DNA from: an uncultured archaeon
GTDB lineage: Archaea > Asgardarchaeota > Thorarchaeia > Thorarchaeales > Thorarchaeaceae
Assembly: GCA_964458565.1 (NCBI GenBank)
Contig: CAYWJO010000001.1
Coordinates: 128,001-192,000 of the forward strand
DNA length: 64,000 nt
Direction: 5' to 3'
Within the stretch, counting starts at the first letter, position 1, and every line of letters starts with the position of its first letter. Shown here piece by piece: positions 19,295 through 59,748 of this stretch. The notes beneath the pieces were generated by a model, which was not told the DNA's origin, did not search any database, and saw only the letters and a program-made list of their open reading frames with translations. The position numbers and the translations under genes are program-made.

Positions 19295-22200
19295 ATGGTC
19301 AGTGAATCAGCCAATAAGACGAGTGAACCATCAAAACCAACTGATGTTCTCATCATTGGTGGAGGCATGGCAGGCATCAATGCGTCTCTTGATCTTGCGA
19401 ATGCTGGGCATCATGCACATATTATCGAACGTAGTGTGAGTATTGGTGGTAACTATGTAGCTGTCTACAAGATATTTCCAGCATTGGAATGTTCTGCTTG
19501 TGTTATGACCCCTCTAACAAGTTTTGTGGGAAAACATCCAGGTATTACAATCCACGCATTGTCTGAAGTTGAGAAGATTGAGGGCGATGTAGGAGATTTC
19601 ATTGTCACTATTCGGAAGAAAGCAAGATATGTTGACGAGAATACTTGTACAGGTTGTCAATTATGTATACGAGCGTGTCCAGTTGAAGTGCCAAACGAAT
19701 ATGACTTTGGCCTCTCATTGCGAAAGGCAATATACATGAACTTCGCACAACAGATTCCACTTATTTCTACTATAGATCGCGAAGTTTGTATAGGCTGTGG
19801 GACCTGCGCTGCGGCATGTCCACAAGGTTGTATCAATTTTGAGGATGAGGATAAGGTCTTTGATCTTAATGTTGGAGCAGTAATTGTCGCAACAGGGTTC
19901 CAAGAGTACAAACCGTTGGACTATGGAGAATATGGTTATGGTATCTATCCTAATGTCATCACATCACTTGAATTAGATCGACAAAGTCACCCTACAGGTC
20001 CAACTGATTCTCATATCGTGCGACCTTCTGACGGGAAGGAACCTGAGAAGGTGTTGTTCATCAATTGTGTTGGAAGTCGTGATGTGCGAGAAAACATAGG
20101 TGGGTACAGTCAACACTGTAACAGGGTCTGTTGCTCATTTGGTGTGAAACTTGCTAAGGTCACACGGATGCATTATCCAAAGGACCACTGTGAGATAATT
20201 TACACCTACATCGATATTCGGACGGCAGGGAAGGCACTGGAAGAGTTCTATTGGGATGCTGAACATGGTGACCAAGATATCAAGTTCATCAGAGGACGTG
20301 TTGCTGAAATTAATGAGGACATTGATACACATGATCTCTCTGTGAAGATGGAAGACACAGAAAATGGTCAGATTATAGAGATTGATAATATTTCGATGGT
20401 CGTGCTCAATGCCAGTTTTAGACCGCCAGAGGGAAATGAGGACCTTGCTCAAATCTTAGGAATTGAGCTTGAAGAAACAGGGTATGTTAAGTCAGCTCAT
20501 CCGAATGCACGAGCAATTGAAACAACAAGACCAGGTGTGTTCGTAGCGGGTTGTGCGCATGGCCCACGAGACGGTACTGACACAGTGAATGAAGGAAAAG
20601 GTGCTGCTATGGCAGCTCACTCACTTCTACCAATCCCAGAGCCTCTTGCAAAGGAAGAGATACCTCCTGCTGAGCTAGGTGATGAACCACGTGTGGGAGT
20701 CTTTGTATGTCATTGCGGAGGTATTATTGGAAACGAAATTGACGCACCGGGTCTTGGAGAGTGGGCTAAAGATTTACCAAATGTGGCGTACTCTACGGAT
20801 TATATCTTCATGTGTAGCGATCCAGGTCAAGATTATGTTACACAGGCAATTAAAGAACACAAACTGAATAGAGTGGTTGTGGGTTCTTGTTCACCATTAC
20901 AGCATGAAGCAACGTTCAGAGCAGCATTGGAAGCAGCAGGTCTTTCGGGCTATTATCTTGTTGGACCGGTTGGTCTAAGAGAACATCTCACTTTGGTGAA
21001 CACTCAAGCTAGTCGCGATGAGAGGCAAGAGAAAGCTCAAGATATGATTCGCAGCGCAGTTGCGAAAGCTGTCAACAATGAAGAGGTTCCTGTGAAGACA
21101 GTAGAGGTGACCAAGAGAGTAATGGTCCTAGGTGGCGGTGTTTCGGGAATGACTGCAGCATTGGACATCGCGAAGAAGGGTTTTGAGGTTGTGTTAGTAG
21201 AAAAGACTGACAAGCTAGGTGGGAGATTAAATGACCTCTACAGGGTATTTCCCAACATGGAAGATGCACAGGAAATAGTGGGAGCACTCTTAGAGAGGGT
21301 TGAGAAAGAAAAGAAAATTACAGTTATACTGAACTCTACAGTCACTAGTCGTGATGGAACATATGGTAATTATGAGATGACAGTAAGGAATCACAGTTCT
21401 AATGAAAATACAGTTTATACAGTCGGTACAATGGTGATAGCAGTAGGTACAGATACTTATGAACCCAAGAATGGCGAGTATGGATGGGAAGAAGTACCCT
21501 GTGTCATGACCACACTTGAACTTGAAAAGAAGCTGAAAGCCGGAGAGATTACCAAAGCCCCAAAGAATCCTGTTTTCATACATTGTGTAGGGTCTCGTCA
21601 GACTCCAGGTGAAGGAAATCGGTATTGCTCACGAGTATGTTGTTCTGCAGTTATCACTATGCAGCATGAACTCAAAGAGATGTTCCCAGACATTCGGATA
21701 TTCTCCGCATATAAGGAACAAATACGTCCTTATGCCAATGGAATGGAAGAGTTATGGAGAGAGAACCGAAGAAAGGGTATTTCCTATCTAAGATGGGTGA
21801 GGGAACGACCAGTCACGGTTGAAAAAGCTCCGGACTCGGATGAAGCAATTGTAACAATTTATGACACGCTATCGCAAGAAACATTCAAGATTAGATCGGA
21901 TATGGTAATTCTTGCTGTTGGTATTGAAGCTCCCCATGATGTGAATAACCTTACGAAAGCAATTGGAATCAGTAGAAGTCAGGATGGTTTTCTTGCAGAG
22001 ATGCATATGAAATTCAGACCCGTTGAAACAACTGTACCTGGCGTTTTTCTTGGAGTGACTTATGCAAAGAATATTGCAGATTCTATTAATCAAGCCCGAG
22101 GAGCGGCTAGTGAGGCAACTATTCCTCTGAATCTCGGAAAAGTAGATATTGAACTTCTTACTGCAGAAGTTGATGAGGAGCTTTGTGTTGGATGCGATCT

Positions 22201-57429: not shown

Positions 57430-58371
57430 TTACATGATTTGATCTATGAACCACTCCTCCATTGAAAGGTGCGTCTGAGTATCTAGAATATTCTCATCCT
57501 CGTAGAGTGATCGAACAAAATGGTTGTATGAATCTACATTCGGTGCCCGAACTGTGGTAAATAGACTGAAATCTTCACTTGTTCTGCTTAGATCCCATAC
57601 CTCATTCATTTCAGCAATTCTGTGAGCTGTTTCAGCAACTGTTCCAGGTTTTACTCTAATCTGTAGAAAGAATTTGAGCGGCAGCCCGATAAGTGTATAA
57701 TCAATAGCTGCAGAATACCCAGCAATAACACCACGAATCTCTAATCGCTGCATAGCCTTCGAAACAGCCGATTGGGATACACGCGATTTCATTTCATTCC
57801 CGATTTCCTCTTGTGATAGCGGAAGAGGATGGTCAACGCTTGGATGTTGCTTTGAGATAACAGATAGTAGCTCTAAATCTCTTTTTGATAGAGGTTTATC
57901 GTCGGTTTCAGTCTTCTTCATTTTGATACTGTGCGATTTGTAGGTTGTAAGAACTTGAGCCATCTTGTACTTACCTTCACTTGTTTTTGCAATCACATTA
58001 TCTATCGTATCAAGAAAATCTTCAAATCCGACTGAAGGTAGGTTTCTGAAATGAGCCAACAGTGAATAATCACCTGTAATACCATCAAGAGATTCTAATC
58101 CAGGCATCTGAAGAAGATCCAGACTTACTTCATGCTCTCTCGGATTCGACTTGATAAAAAGGAGCGTGCTGCGTTCAGAAGAGACCTTTGCAGGATCGAC
58201 TACAGTAATGTAAGATCGAATGACTCCATACTTTGCAAATCCACGAATAGTTTTTGATACCCAGTTTCGGCTTTTACCGACTAATGAACTGTAGACTGAA
58301 ACGGGTTGTCGAGAGTTTCTTATGATTGATTTGAGTAAGGACTGTTCAGGCTCTGTAATAGATTGCATCAT
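57430..58371 (-). CDS. Tandem (double HTH-RAM) Lrp/AsnC-family regulator
   Basis: Two modules, each HTH..GVIxxY..D followed by a RAM domain (ITGDYSL; TSEDFSL). Confidence 0.8.
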   Translation of the reverse strand: MMQSITEPEQSLLKSIIRNSRQPVSVYSSLVGKSRNWVSKTIRGFAKYGVIRSYITVVDPAKVSSERSTLLFIKSNPREHEVSLDLLQMPGLESLDGITGDYSLLAHFRNLPSVGFEDFLDTIDNVIAKTSEGKYKMAQVLTTYKSHSIKMKKTETDDKPLSKRDLELLSVISKQHPSVDHPLPLSQEEIGNEMKSRVSQSAVSKAMQRLEIRGVIAGYSAAIDYTLIGLPLKFFLQIRVKPGTVAETAHRIAEMNEVWDLSRTSEDFSLFTTVRAPNVDSYNHFVRSLYEDENILDTQTHLSMEEWFIDQIM

Positions 58372-58457: not shown

Positions 58458-59748
58458 ATGGCAGACTACAAGGTGAAAGATATTGGTCTTGCTGCAGAAG
58501 GCAGGATGTTGATTGAGTATGCGGAGAAGCACATGCCTGTGCTTATGCATCTTCGAAAGAAGTATGCTGAAACAAAGCCACTCAAAGGAATGAAGATTGC
58601 AGGTTGTCTACACGTCACCAAAGAGACCGCAGTTCTGATAGAAACACTTCGTGCGGTTGGTGCGGAGGTAGCATGGTCAGGATGTAATCCATTATCAACA
58701 AATGATAAAGTGGCGGCAGGTCTCGCAGCTAATGATGTTCCAGTATATGCATGGCATAACCTAAGCACCGAGGAATACTATTGGTGTATTGAACAGACTC
58801 TCAAGACTGAACCGACACTCACACTTGATGACGGTGCAGATCTCATTTTCACACTTCATAACAAGCATCAGGAATTGATACCGAATCTCTATGGGGGTTC
58901 TGAGGAAACAACAACTGGAGTCATTCGAGTTCGTGCAATGGCTGAAGATGGTGCTCTCAAGTACCCAATCATGGCTGTTAATGATGCTGATACTAAGCAT
59001 ATGTTCGATAATGTATATGGTACAGGTCAGAGCGTATTTGATGGTGTCATGCGAGCCTCTGCGATTCTCATTGCTGGGAAGACGGTGGTAATTGGTGGAT
59101 ACGGCTACTGCGGTAGGGGTATGGCTGAACGAGCACGAGGTCTTGGGGCTAATGTTATTGTCACAGAAGTGAACCCAATTCGCGGACTTCAGGCCAGAAT
59201 GGACGGTTTTCGAGTAATGCCGATGGGCGAAGCAGCTCCTGAAGGGGATTTGTTCCTTACAGCTACAGGGATGAAAGATGTAATCACCGCTGAGCATTTC
59301 AAGGTCATGAAGGATGGTGCGATGTTTGGTAATGCAGGTCACTATAACGTTGAAATCAACGAACCGGATCTCATCTCTCTCAGCAAGGGACCAAAGAGAA
59401 GGGTTCGACATGCACTTGATGAATACGAGATGATGGATGGGCGAATACTCTATCTACTAGGTGAGGGAAGACTTGTGAATCTCACAGCTGCGGAAGGTCA
59501 CCCGAGTGAGAAGTTAGCATTCGTTGCTGCTTCCTAGAAAGGTGATGGACCTCAGCTTCACAGGCCAGCTCAACGCAATGCTCTGGATGACTAAGAATGG
59601 AAAGGACTTGAAACCAGCTGTCTATGAATTCCCCAAAGAACTCGATCAACAAACTGCTTTAGCAAAATTGGAAACTATGGGCTTAAAGATAGACAAGTGG
59701 ACACCCGAGCAGGAAGCATATGCAAGAGCTTATGCTGAAGGCACATAG
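58458..59748 (+). CDS. ahcY: S-adenosyl-L-homocysteine hydrolase, join(58458..59508,59540..59748), 419 aa after removal of a 31-nt putative BHB intron
   Basis: GCLHVT, SGCNPLST, DDGADL, EETTTG, KHMFDNVYGTGQS, GYGYCGRG, GRLVNL..AEGHPSE | VMDLSF; the two ORF halves join in frame after a 31-nt deletion. Confidence 0.93.
59509..59539 (+). other. Putative 31-nt bulge-helix-bulge mRNA intron in ahcY
   Basis: Exon helix UCACC/GGUGA, central helix CGAG/CUAG (one G-A), 3-nt bulges UGA and AAA, intron hairpin; canonical cuts restore the reading frame. Confidence 0.8.

What the first reader, a model, noticed from the sequence alone, without database searches (positions are those of the whole stretch)
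59497..59546. Bulge-helix-bulge intron interrupting a protein-coding gene (ahcY): candidate archaeal mRNA splicing outside cbf5
Seen in sequence: AhcY reads normally up to AEGHPSE, then 8 unrelated residues and a TAG. The expected continuation VMDLSF...EGT* resumes in another frame 31 nt later. The junction folds as a BHB: exon-exon helix G59497-C59502 (GUCACC) with G59541-U59546 (GGUGAU); central 4-bp helix C59503GAG with C59534UAG (three Watson-Crick pairs plus one G-A); 3-nt bulges U59507GA and A59538AA on opposite strands; and an intron hairpin GAAG-U-UAGCA-UUCGU-UGCUG-CUUC. Established: archaeal tRNA splicing endonuclease (EndA) cuts after the second nucleotide of each bulge and RtcB ligates. 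Applying that rule (UG|A, AA|A) removes 59509-59539 and gives CAC CCG AGU GAG GUG AUG = H-P-S-E-V-M, a 419-aa AhcY. The cut sites predicted from structure therefore match the deletion required by protein homology. The established precedent for archaeal mRNA introns is the BHB-type intron in crenarchaeal cbf5. Inference: this is a functional mRNA intron in a central metabolic gene of a probable Asgard archaeon, relevant to the origin of endonuclease/ligase mRNA splicing such as eukaryotic HAC1/XBP1.
Basis: partly seen in the sequence, partly recalled or inferred. Interest (0 to 1): 0.96.

Follow-up and report, generated by a model that had tools for sequence, protein, structure and literature searches.

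The report
tRNA-type intron inside Asgard ahcY gene
The only S-adenosylhomocysteine hydrolase gene found in this Thorarchaeota (Asgard) genome is broken by a 31-base insert shaped like the introns archaea cut out of tRNAs, and relatives keep that shape at the same codon, so the mRNA is very probably spliced, which in print is shown for only one archaeal coding sequence (cbf5).

Summary
ahcY (window 58458-59748, +) loses its frame after GHPS. Removing 59509-59539 (31 nt) restores GHPSEVMD and a 419-aa protein. The junction fits a bulge-helix-bulge (BHB): a 6-bp exon-exon helix, a 4-position central helix (three pairs plus one G.A), two 3-nt bulges and a 9-bp intron hairpin.

Comparative data support the intron reading. 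The same codon is interrupted in 18 Asgard reference genomes from three families and in 13 metagenome contigs. The inserts come in nine lengths (20-59 nt, every residue modulo 3). In all of them, cutting after the second nucleotide of each bulge gives ...HPS-E-VMD.... The hairpin shows compensatory changes. The third base of the exon's Pro codon covaries with its intron partner. Exon 2 is under purifying selection. Four independently assembled DNA runs carry the insert. The genome encodes two EndA paralogues and RtcB. The same cut rule reproduces seven of its own tRNA intron boundaries.

No RNA data could be obtained, so splicing itself is inferred (confidence 0.88). The window's copy has a weakened central helix. 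The eukaryotic HAC1/XBP1 link is speculation.

In print only cbf5 is documented, so this is a new member of a known kind. Earlier unchecked notes of this scan report similar mRNA introns on other DNA and in this genome; I verified the actin one and one EF-1alpha one.

The parts
58458..59508 (+). ahcY exon 1: codons 1-350 (M...AAEGHPS) plus the first base (G) of Glu351
   Evidence: Translation; Pfam AdoHcyase 1-140 and AdoHcyase_NAD 1-161/162; 81-93% identical to relatives' AhcY
59509..59539 (+). 31-nt BHB intron (A-GAAGUUAGCAUUCGUUGCUGCUUC-CUAG-AA); carries the TAG (59535-59537) that ends the unspliced frame
   Evidence: homologous 28-59-nt inserts at the same codon in relatives
59540..59748 (+). 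ahcY exon 2: last two bases of Glu351, 68 codons (VMDLSF...AYAEGT) and stop TAG 59746-59748
   Evidence: Translation; Pfam AdoHcyase positions 225-291/299; nonsynonymous differences 0.04-0.25 against saturated synonymous differences 0.62-1.0 among intron-bearing genes
59497..59502 (+). 5' strand of the exon-exon (outer) helix, GUCACC
   Evidence: Pairs with 59541-59546, 6 of 6. The three pairs next to the junction are kept in nearly all relatives
59503..59506 (+). 5' strand of the central 4-position helix, CGAG (exon: Pro codon bases 2-3 plus AG of Ser)
   Evidence: Faces CUAG 59534-59537 with C-G, G.A, A-U, G-C. Relatives have perfect CUAG/CUAG or CCAG/CUGG
59507..59509 (+). 5' bulge UGA; predicted cut between 59508 and 59509
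   Evidence: Geometry; cut rule stated in PMC2738675 and reproduced on this genome's tRNA introns
59510..59533 (+). intron hairpin: 5 bp, one bulged U, 4 bp, loop UUCGU
   Evidence: Present in the MFE fold. Paired in 100% of cells across 7 sequences, 3 of 9 pairs changed on both sides
59534..59537 (+). 3' strand of the central helix, CUAG (intron)
59538..59540 (+). 3' bulge AAA; predicted cut between 59539 and 59540
59541..59546 (+). 3' strand of the exon-exon helix, GGUGAU (end of the Glu codon, Val, start of Met)
   Evidence: Glu is GAG in 11 of 12 intron-bearing genes against 22 of 48 intronless genes

Best explanation
The 31 nt at 59509-59539 are a tRNA-type (bulge-helix-bulge) intron in the coding sequence of ahcY. 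Shown: the gene cannot give full-length AhcY unless exactly these bases are removed; the pre-mRNA can fold into a relaxed BHB whose two 3-nt bulges bracket exactly those bases; relatives conserve this fold, not the sequence or the length, at the same codon. Inferred: after transcription the (alpha-beta)2-type splicing endonuclease made from the genome's two EndA paralogues cuts after the second nucleotide of each bulge (UG|A and AA|A). RtcB then joins the exon ends and probably circularises the 31-nt intron. Only the spliced mRNA is translated into the 419-aa enzyme. Unspliced mRNA would give a 359-aa product lacking the C-terminal 69 residues. The Thor-family introns (28-59 nt) share the core GCAUUCGYUGC and so have one origin. 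Their scattered presence means many precise losses, repeated gains or both; this is unresolved.
For: (1) Removal of 59509-59539 restores GHPSEVMD, the motif in about 60 uninterrupted relatives. (2) Only one ahcY copy was found, and Pfam coverage is continuous across the junction. (3) The insert is identical, without gaps, in contigs assembled independently from four DNA runs. (4) The same codon is interrupted in 13 of 74 readable Thor-family genomes, 2 of 3 genomes of family f13 and 3 of 3 of family f31, and in 13 metagenome contigs. The nine lengths (20, 21, 22, 28, 31, 32, 33, 34, 59 nt) cover all residues modulo 3. One cut rule yields HPS-E-VMD in all. (5) Covariation: the hairpin is paired in 100% of cells and 3 of 9 pairs change on both sides; the covariation score is 0.190 against 0.105 in shuffles (0 of 500 reach it) and 0.045-0.073 with slid partners. 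The exon's Pro third base matches its intron partner: CCU with CUAG, CCC with NUGG. (6) Codon constraint at paired exon bases: Ser is AGY in 12 of 12 intron-bearing against 38 of 61 intronless genes; Glu is GAG in 11 of 12 against 22 of 48; Pro CCA in 0 of 12 against 21 of 58. (7) Exon 2 shows pN 0.04-0.25 with pS saturated at 0.62-1.0, while the 31-nt introns stay 68-97% identical. (8) Machinery is present: two EndA paralogues, each with N-terminal and catalytic domains, and RtcB. Asgard EndA is published as (alpha-beta)2 with the L1 loop that gives broad specificity (PMC5829648). (9) Internal control: seven tRNA introns of this genome have a 4/4 central helix and an outer helix of at least 5 bp exactly at ARAGORN's boundaries under the same rule. 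PMC2738675 states the same rule for cbf5. (10) Two more core genes of this genome carry 30-nt stop-containing BHB inserts: EF-1alpha and actin.
Against: No RNA evidence: neither the spliced junction nor a circular intron has been seen. The window's own central helix has a G.A mismatch (Pro CCG, where its nearest intron-bearing relative has CCU), and its BHB fold is 3.3 kcal/mol above the MFE. In most relatives the outer helix is only 3 bp. Three of the four 32-nt reference-genome introns and the nine 32-33-nt metagenome introns also have a G.A at one central position. The intron is absent from the closest sister of almost every intron-bearing gene, so it is dispensable and gives no sign of a function of its own. 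The genome is 93% complete, so a second intact copy cannot be fully excluded. Related sequences are not independent, so the codon and covariation counts overstate significance.
Confidence: 0.88

Rival explanations
1. The gene is a pseudogene, inactivated by a 31-nt insertion, and the BHB-like fold is incidental.
For: The unspliced frame ends after 359 codons. The window's central helix is imperfect. Many relatives lack the insert.
Against: Only one copy was found. There is no other lesion. Exon 2 downstream of the break is under strong purifying selection in all intron-bearing genes. The insert persists with compensatory changes across three families. Insert lengths vary, yet one structural rule always restores the frame.
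Confidence: 0.03
2. ahcY is a split gene. A 359-aa N-terminal protein and a separately initiated C-terminal peptide of about 70 aa (TTG 59524 or ATG 59545) assemble into an active enzyme without RNA splicing.
For: An ORF from TTG 59524 covers exon 2. AGGUGAU just before ATG 59545 resembles a Shine-Dalgarno sequence (read).
Against: The Shine-Dalgarno-like bases abut the ATG with no spacing, and they are not conserved (GGUAAU, GGUCAU, GGUUAU in relatives). A split gene would not need a conserved BHB, exon-intron covariation or AGY/GAG codon constraint. In f31 the inserts are 20-22 nt with no room for initiation signals.
Confidence: 0.03
3. The ribosome passes the insert by translational recoding (frameshift or a gene-60-like hop) on unspliced mRNA.
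For: A stable hairpin and a nearby stop codon are also features of known bypass sites.
Against: Insert lengths of 20-59 nt cover all three residues modulo 3, even within one genus (20, 21, 22 nt), so no fixed frameshift fits. There are no matching take-off and landing codons: GAG at 59508-59510, but AAG at 59539-59541 (read). Conservation follows BHB geometry.
Confidence: 0.02
4. The insert is an assembly or binning artefact.
For: The genome is a 93-contig metagenome-assembled genome.
Against: Contigs from four separately assembled runs carry it with 0 differences and 0 gaps. Homologous inserts occur in dozens of other assemblies.
Confidence: 0.01

Closest known systems
BHB intron in the cbf5 pre-mRNA of Crenarchaeota (Watanabe 2002; Yoshinari 2006; Yokobori 2009, PMC2738675)
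   Same: A short intron without an ORF inside a coding sequence. A relaxed BHB with cuts between the second and third bulge residues. The host has a hetero-oligomeric EndA. Phylogenetic distribution is patchy, with gain and loss. The unspliced frame is broken.
   Different: A different gene (ahcY, methyl-cycle metabolism) and a different phylum (Asgard). cbf5 in this genome is uninterrupted. The site is occupied in three Asgard families by introns of unrelated sequence. Splicing is not yet shown experimentally, whereas cbf5 splicing has cDNA and in vitro support.
Archaeal pre-tRNA BHB introns, including this genome's own
   Same: The same geometry and cut rule, and the same size class: about 30 nt in tRNA-Thr, Ala, Leu and Gln of this genome. 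The same predicted enzymes (EndA, RtcB).
   Different: The flanking helix is made of codons, not a tRNA stem, so the exon half of the motif is constrained by both protein and RNA structure.
BHB intron in the 5' UTR of Haloferax volcanii HVO_1309 (Schwarz 2020, PMC7714728)
   Same: An mRNA substrate of the splicing endonuclease; the excised intron was found as a circle and cleavage was confirmed in vitro.
   Different: It lies in the untranslated leader, so the reading frame does not depend on it. Here the coding frame does.
HAC1/XBP1 unconventional mRNA splicing in eukaryotes
   Same: Spliceosome-independent cut-and-ligate removal of a short frame-changing mRNA intron; the ligase in animals is RtcB (established knowledge).
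   Different: That cleavage is by IRE1 in the loops of two hairpins, not by the tRNA endonuclease in BHB bulges. No evidence here for regulation or common descent.

Membership tests
Archaeal BHB (tRNA-type) intron, substrate of EndA | Two 3-nt bulges on opposite strands separated by a 4-bp helix | tested here: met
   Bulges UGA and AAA flank CGAG/CUAG, which has three pairs plus one G.A, so the motif is relaxed in the window. The helix is fully paired in 10 of 14 reference sequences and in f31.
Archaeal BHB (tRNA-type) intron, substrate of EndA | Flanking helices on both sides of the motif (h and h') | tested here: met
   Outer helix 6 bp in the window and at least 3 bp in relatives. The inner hairpin stacks directly on the motif and is 100% paired.
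Archaeal BHB (tRNA-type) intron, substrate of EndA | Cuts after the second nucleotide of each bulge give the functional exon junction | tested here: met
   HPS-E-VMD is restored in all 18 reference genomes and 13 metagenome contigs across nine insert lengths. The rule was validated on seven tRNA introns of this genome and is stated in PMC2738675.
Archaeal BHB (tRNA-type) intron, substrate of EndA | Structure maintained by compensatory change | tested here: met
   3 of 9 hairpin pairs change on both sides. Covariation is 0.190 against 0.105 in shuffles (0 of 500). Exon CCU/CCC covaries with intron A/G.
Archaeal BHB (tRNA-type) intron, substrate of EndA | Host encodes the splicing endonuclease and the RtcB ligase | tested here: met
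   Two EndA paralogues (187 and 212 aa, both with PF02778 and PF01974) and one RtcB.
Archaeal BHB (tRNA-type) intron, substrate of EndA | Spliced RNA and excised (circular) intron exist in vivo; EndA cuts in vitro | not testable with these tools
   No RNA run is listed for this stretch. No wet assay was possible.
cbf5 intron family | Intron located in cbf5, at the catalytic Asp codon | tested here: not met
   The intron is in ahcY. cbf5 of this genome (C1:70649-71602) matches TIGR00425 positions 7-322 in one open frame with no stop.
S-adenosyl-L-homocysteine hydrolase (AhcY) | AdoHcyase and AdoHcyase_NAD domains with the GHPSEVMD motif, collinear with relatives | tested here: met
   Pfam E = 7e-61 and 2e-50 on exon 1; exon 2 covers model positions 225-291 of 299. 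81-93% identity to family members.
IRE1-type (HAC1/XBP1) mRNA intron | Splice sites in the loops of twin hairpins, cut by IRE1 | tested here: not met
   Both predicted splice sites lie in 3-nt bulges of a BHB, not in hairpin loops. IRE1 itself was not searched for.

The most novel reading that the evidence does not exclude
The GHPS|EVMD codon of ahcY holds an intron older than the split of three Asgard families, or is a hot spot that tRNA-type mini-introns invade repeatedly. It would belong to a small set of roughly 30-nt introns in core genes of Thorarchaeota (ahcY, actin, EF-1alpha). Their removal by EndA/RtcB would be used to gate how much active protein is made. That would be regulated, spliceosome-independent mRNA splicing in the archaeal lineage closest to eukaryotes.
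Probability: 0.15. Interest if true: 0.9.

Novelty: new member of a known kind. Interest (0 to 1): 0.72.

Why it matters
In the searchable literature, archaeal splicing of a coding sequence is documented for one gene only, cbf5 in Crenarchaeota. A 5'-UTR case in Haloferax is the only other mRNA substrate, and nothing was found for ahcY or Thorarchaeota.

This case has unusually strong comparative support. Three families, nine insert lengths, exon-intron covariation and codon constraint all point the same way. It lies in a central metabolic enzyme of an Asgard archaeon, next to similar introns in actin and EF-1alpha.

If confirmed, the tRNA-splicing machinery of the closest archaeal relatives of eukaryotes routinely processes mRNAs. 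Such genes are currently miscalled as truncated or frameshifted in Asgard MAGs. The case also gives a compact, testable substrate (about 50 nt) for Asgard EndA.

Tried and rejected
No RNA holder was listed for the stretch, so expression and splicing could not be examined.

Rfam and ARAGORN found nothing in the window.

Genome-wide structure-plus-frame scans for further mRNA introns failed to give a count. The first scan showed no length enrichment over a reversed-sequence control. The second used wrong-phase joins as control and gave 412 true-phase hits against 417 and 421 control hits, or 26 against 21 and 21 at strict settings. Apart from ahcY, the best candidates read as neighbouring gene pairs. 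The filters also miss actin and EF-1alpha by design, because their flanking frames are short.

A search for other copies of the 30-nt intron in the genome (up to 7 mismatches) found none, and the core motif occurs at about background rate. A dispersed mobile family is therefore not supported.

Tests for transfer or co-conversion were inconclusive. Excess synonymous similarity appears at codons -4 to +8. However, flanks outside the six BHB codons follow the gene tree. Sister-pair differences at the junction codons are not clearly above the intronless control of 3.66 of 6.

The MAFFT alignment of all intron classes together (A1) misaligned the 32- and 34-nt classes, so class-specific alignments were used.

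No interrupted ahcY was seen among the non-Asgard loci fetched (Bathyarchaeia, Altiarchaeota, bacteria).

Five genome pattern hits and two metagenome hits had no ahcY context and were discarded.

Exon-1 dN/dS pairs with pN near 0.65 are artefacts of a one-codon indel and were ignored.

Full report
**What is in the sequence.**
The window encodes an S-adenosyl-L-homocysteine hydrolase on the + strand. From ATG 58458 the frame gives 350 residues ending ...LVNLTAAEGHPS. It then reads EKLAFVAAS and stops at TAG 59535-59537. A different frame from 59542 reads VMDLSFTGQ...AYAEGT and stops at 59746-59748. Pfam places AdoHcyase and the whole AdoHcyase_NAD domain on the first piece and AdoHcyase model positions 225-291 of 299 on the second. 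Joining 59508 to 59540 gives CAC CCG AGT GAG GTG ATG, that is HPSEVM, and a 419-aa protein. The minimum-energy fold reproduces the outer helix and the hairpin (z = -2.12). The central helix contains a G.A, so the BHB fold is 3.3 kcal/mol above the MFE for this copy.

**Origin and reality of the insert.**
Named relatives identify the organism as a Thorarchaeota (Asgard) MAG. The runs that hold it are salt-marsh metagenomes. The window is G000:C1:128001-192000 in a 3.7-Mb genome that is 93% complete and shows a single ahcY match. Logan contigs assembled separately from four runs cover the junction with no differences and no gaps, so the insert is not an assembly artefact. No RNA run was available.

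**Relatives.**
Most family members have an uninterrupted GHPSEVMD. The same codon is interrupted in 13 of 74 Thor-family genomes whose junction could be read:
- G000, G342, G023, G006, G021, G001, G012 and G356 carry 31 nt.
- G002, G343, G346 and G376 carry 32 nt.
- G347 carries 59 nt with a duplicated hairpin.

It is also interrupted in 2 of 3 genomes of a second family (f13, 34 nt, unrelated sequence) and in all 3 genomes of a third family (f31, 20-22 nt). A pattern scan of metagenome contigs added 13 Thor-type genes with six distinct introns of 28, 31, 32 and 33 nt. In every case, cutting after the second nucleotide of each 3-nt bulge yields ...HPS-E-VMD.... The nine lengths cover all residues modulo 3, even within one genus. 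This rules out translation of the insert or a fixed frameshift. It fits excision defined by RNA structure.

**Structure conservation.**
On the seven 31-nt sequences compared, the hairpin is paired in 100% of cells. Three of its nine pairs change on both sides and two change on one side. The central helix is paired in 96% of cells, and the only break is the window's G.A. The covariation score is 0.190 against 0.105 in shuffles (0 of 500 reach it) and 0.045-0.073 with slid partners.

Across intron classes, the third base of the exon's Pro codon matches its intron partner: CCU with CUAG, CCC with CUGG or AUGG. Codons that supply paired bases are constrained:
- Ser is AGY in 12 of 12 intron-bearing genes against 38 of 61 intronless genes.
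- Glu is GAG in 11 of 12 against 22 of 48.
- Pro CCA is used in 0 of 12 against 21 of 58.

These sequences are related, so the counts are descriptive and not independent tests.

**Selection.**
Among intron-bearing genes, synonymous sites are saturated (pS 0.62-1.0). Nonsynonymous differences in exon 2 are 0.04-0.25. The 31-nt introns stay 68-97% identical. The part of the gene downstream of the frame break is therefore translated in the frame that splicing would create, and the intron itself is under constraint.

**Machinery and internal control.**
The genome has two EndA paralogues, each with the N-terminal and catalytic domains, and one RtcB. Asgard archaea are published as having (alpha-beta)2 EndA with the L1 loop linked to broad substrate range (PMC5829648). 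ARAGORN of 32 tRNA genes with an intron, many of them about 30 nt long. For seven of these, my BHB rule gives a 4/4 central helix and an outer helix of at least 5 bp exactly at ARAGORN's boundaries. The cbf5 paper states the same cut position.

**Other mRNA introns in this genome.**
Following unchecked notes of this scan, I confirmed two cases. EF-1alpha on C45 carries a 30-nt, TGA-containing BHB insert at 20426-20455, and its removal gives GHKDFI|KNMITG. Actin on C1 (109551-110684, minus strand) carries a 30-nt, TAA-containing insert with a CCAG/CUGG central helix and a 9-bp stem. cbf5 is uninterrupted. My own genome-wide scans could not count such introns. They are few compared with the background of neighbouring gene pairs.

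**Evolution.**
On the AhcY tree, intron presence needs 13 changes, at least 11 of them forced by supported branches. That is no more clustered than shuffled labels. The Thor introns share the core GCAUUCGYUGC and have no other copy in the genome, so they have a single origin and are gene-specific. Flanks outside the six BHB codons follow the gene tree, and junction-codon differences between sisters are not clearly above control. Many precise losses, repeated gains or short conversion events all remain possible. Occupation of the same codon by unrelated introns in three families points to either an ancient intron or an insertion hot spot.

**Verdict.**
Splicing itself remains inferred. Rivals (pseudogene, split gene, translational bypass, artefact) together hold under 0.1. 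In print, coding-sequence BHB introns are known only for cbf5, plus one 5'-UTR case. No paper was found on ahcY or Thorarchaeota. This is a new member of a known kind. Earlier notes of this scan report similar cases on other DNA. The HAC1/XBP1 connection is speculative.

Noticed in passing
G000:C45:20100-21608 (outside the window): EF-1alpha is in pieces. A 30-nt BHB insert with an in-frame TGA lies at 20426-20455 (central helix 4 of 4 pairs); its removal gives GHKDFI|KNMITG. A further frame break lies near 20259-20289. A third break is only a scaffold gap of Ns flanked by duplicated sequence.
   Followed up: partly
G000:C1:109551-110684, minus strand (about 17-18 kb before the window start): The actin gene carries a 30-nt insert containing TAA between ...LKTFQ and MWVSRKEF. 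It has a CCAG/CUGG central helix, AAU and UAA bulges, a 9-bp stem and only a 1-bp outer helix.
   Followed up: partly
G000, whole genome: ARAGORN finds only 32 tRNA genes, and 22 of them are called with an intron (three calls are implausibly long). Many introns are about 30 nt, the same size class as the mRNA inserts. Other tRNA genes probably have non-canonical introns and are missed.
   Followed up: partly
L188, L189, L190 (G328-G330, family f31), minus strand of each locus: ahcY in these genomes has two mini-introns only 9 nt apart. One is the 20-22-nt intron at GHPS|EVMD. The other is a 30-nt insert between AAA and EGHPS with a perfect CCGC/GCGG central helix, AG|G and AA|A bulges and no adjacent outer helix. 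This suggests ordered or composite splicing. The 21-nt insert of G330 has no in-frame stop.
   Followed up: partly
L147:234-311, minus strand (G347): A 59-nt version of the ahcY intron holds two copies of the GCAUUCGYYGC-type hairpin inside a 7-bp closing stem. This looks like an internal duplication of the Thor intron.
   Followed up: no
G000:C7:61508-62329: A second actin-family gene matches Pfam Actin in two separate pieces (model positions 6-167 and 306-400) in different open frames. It could be a divergent Arp or another interrupted gene.
   Followed up: no
window 57430-58371, minus strand: A 313-aa ORF is transcribed divergently from ahcY. Its family was not checked.
   Followed up: no
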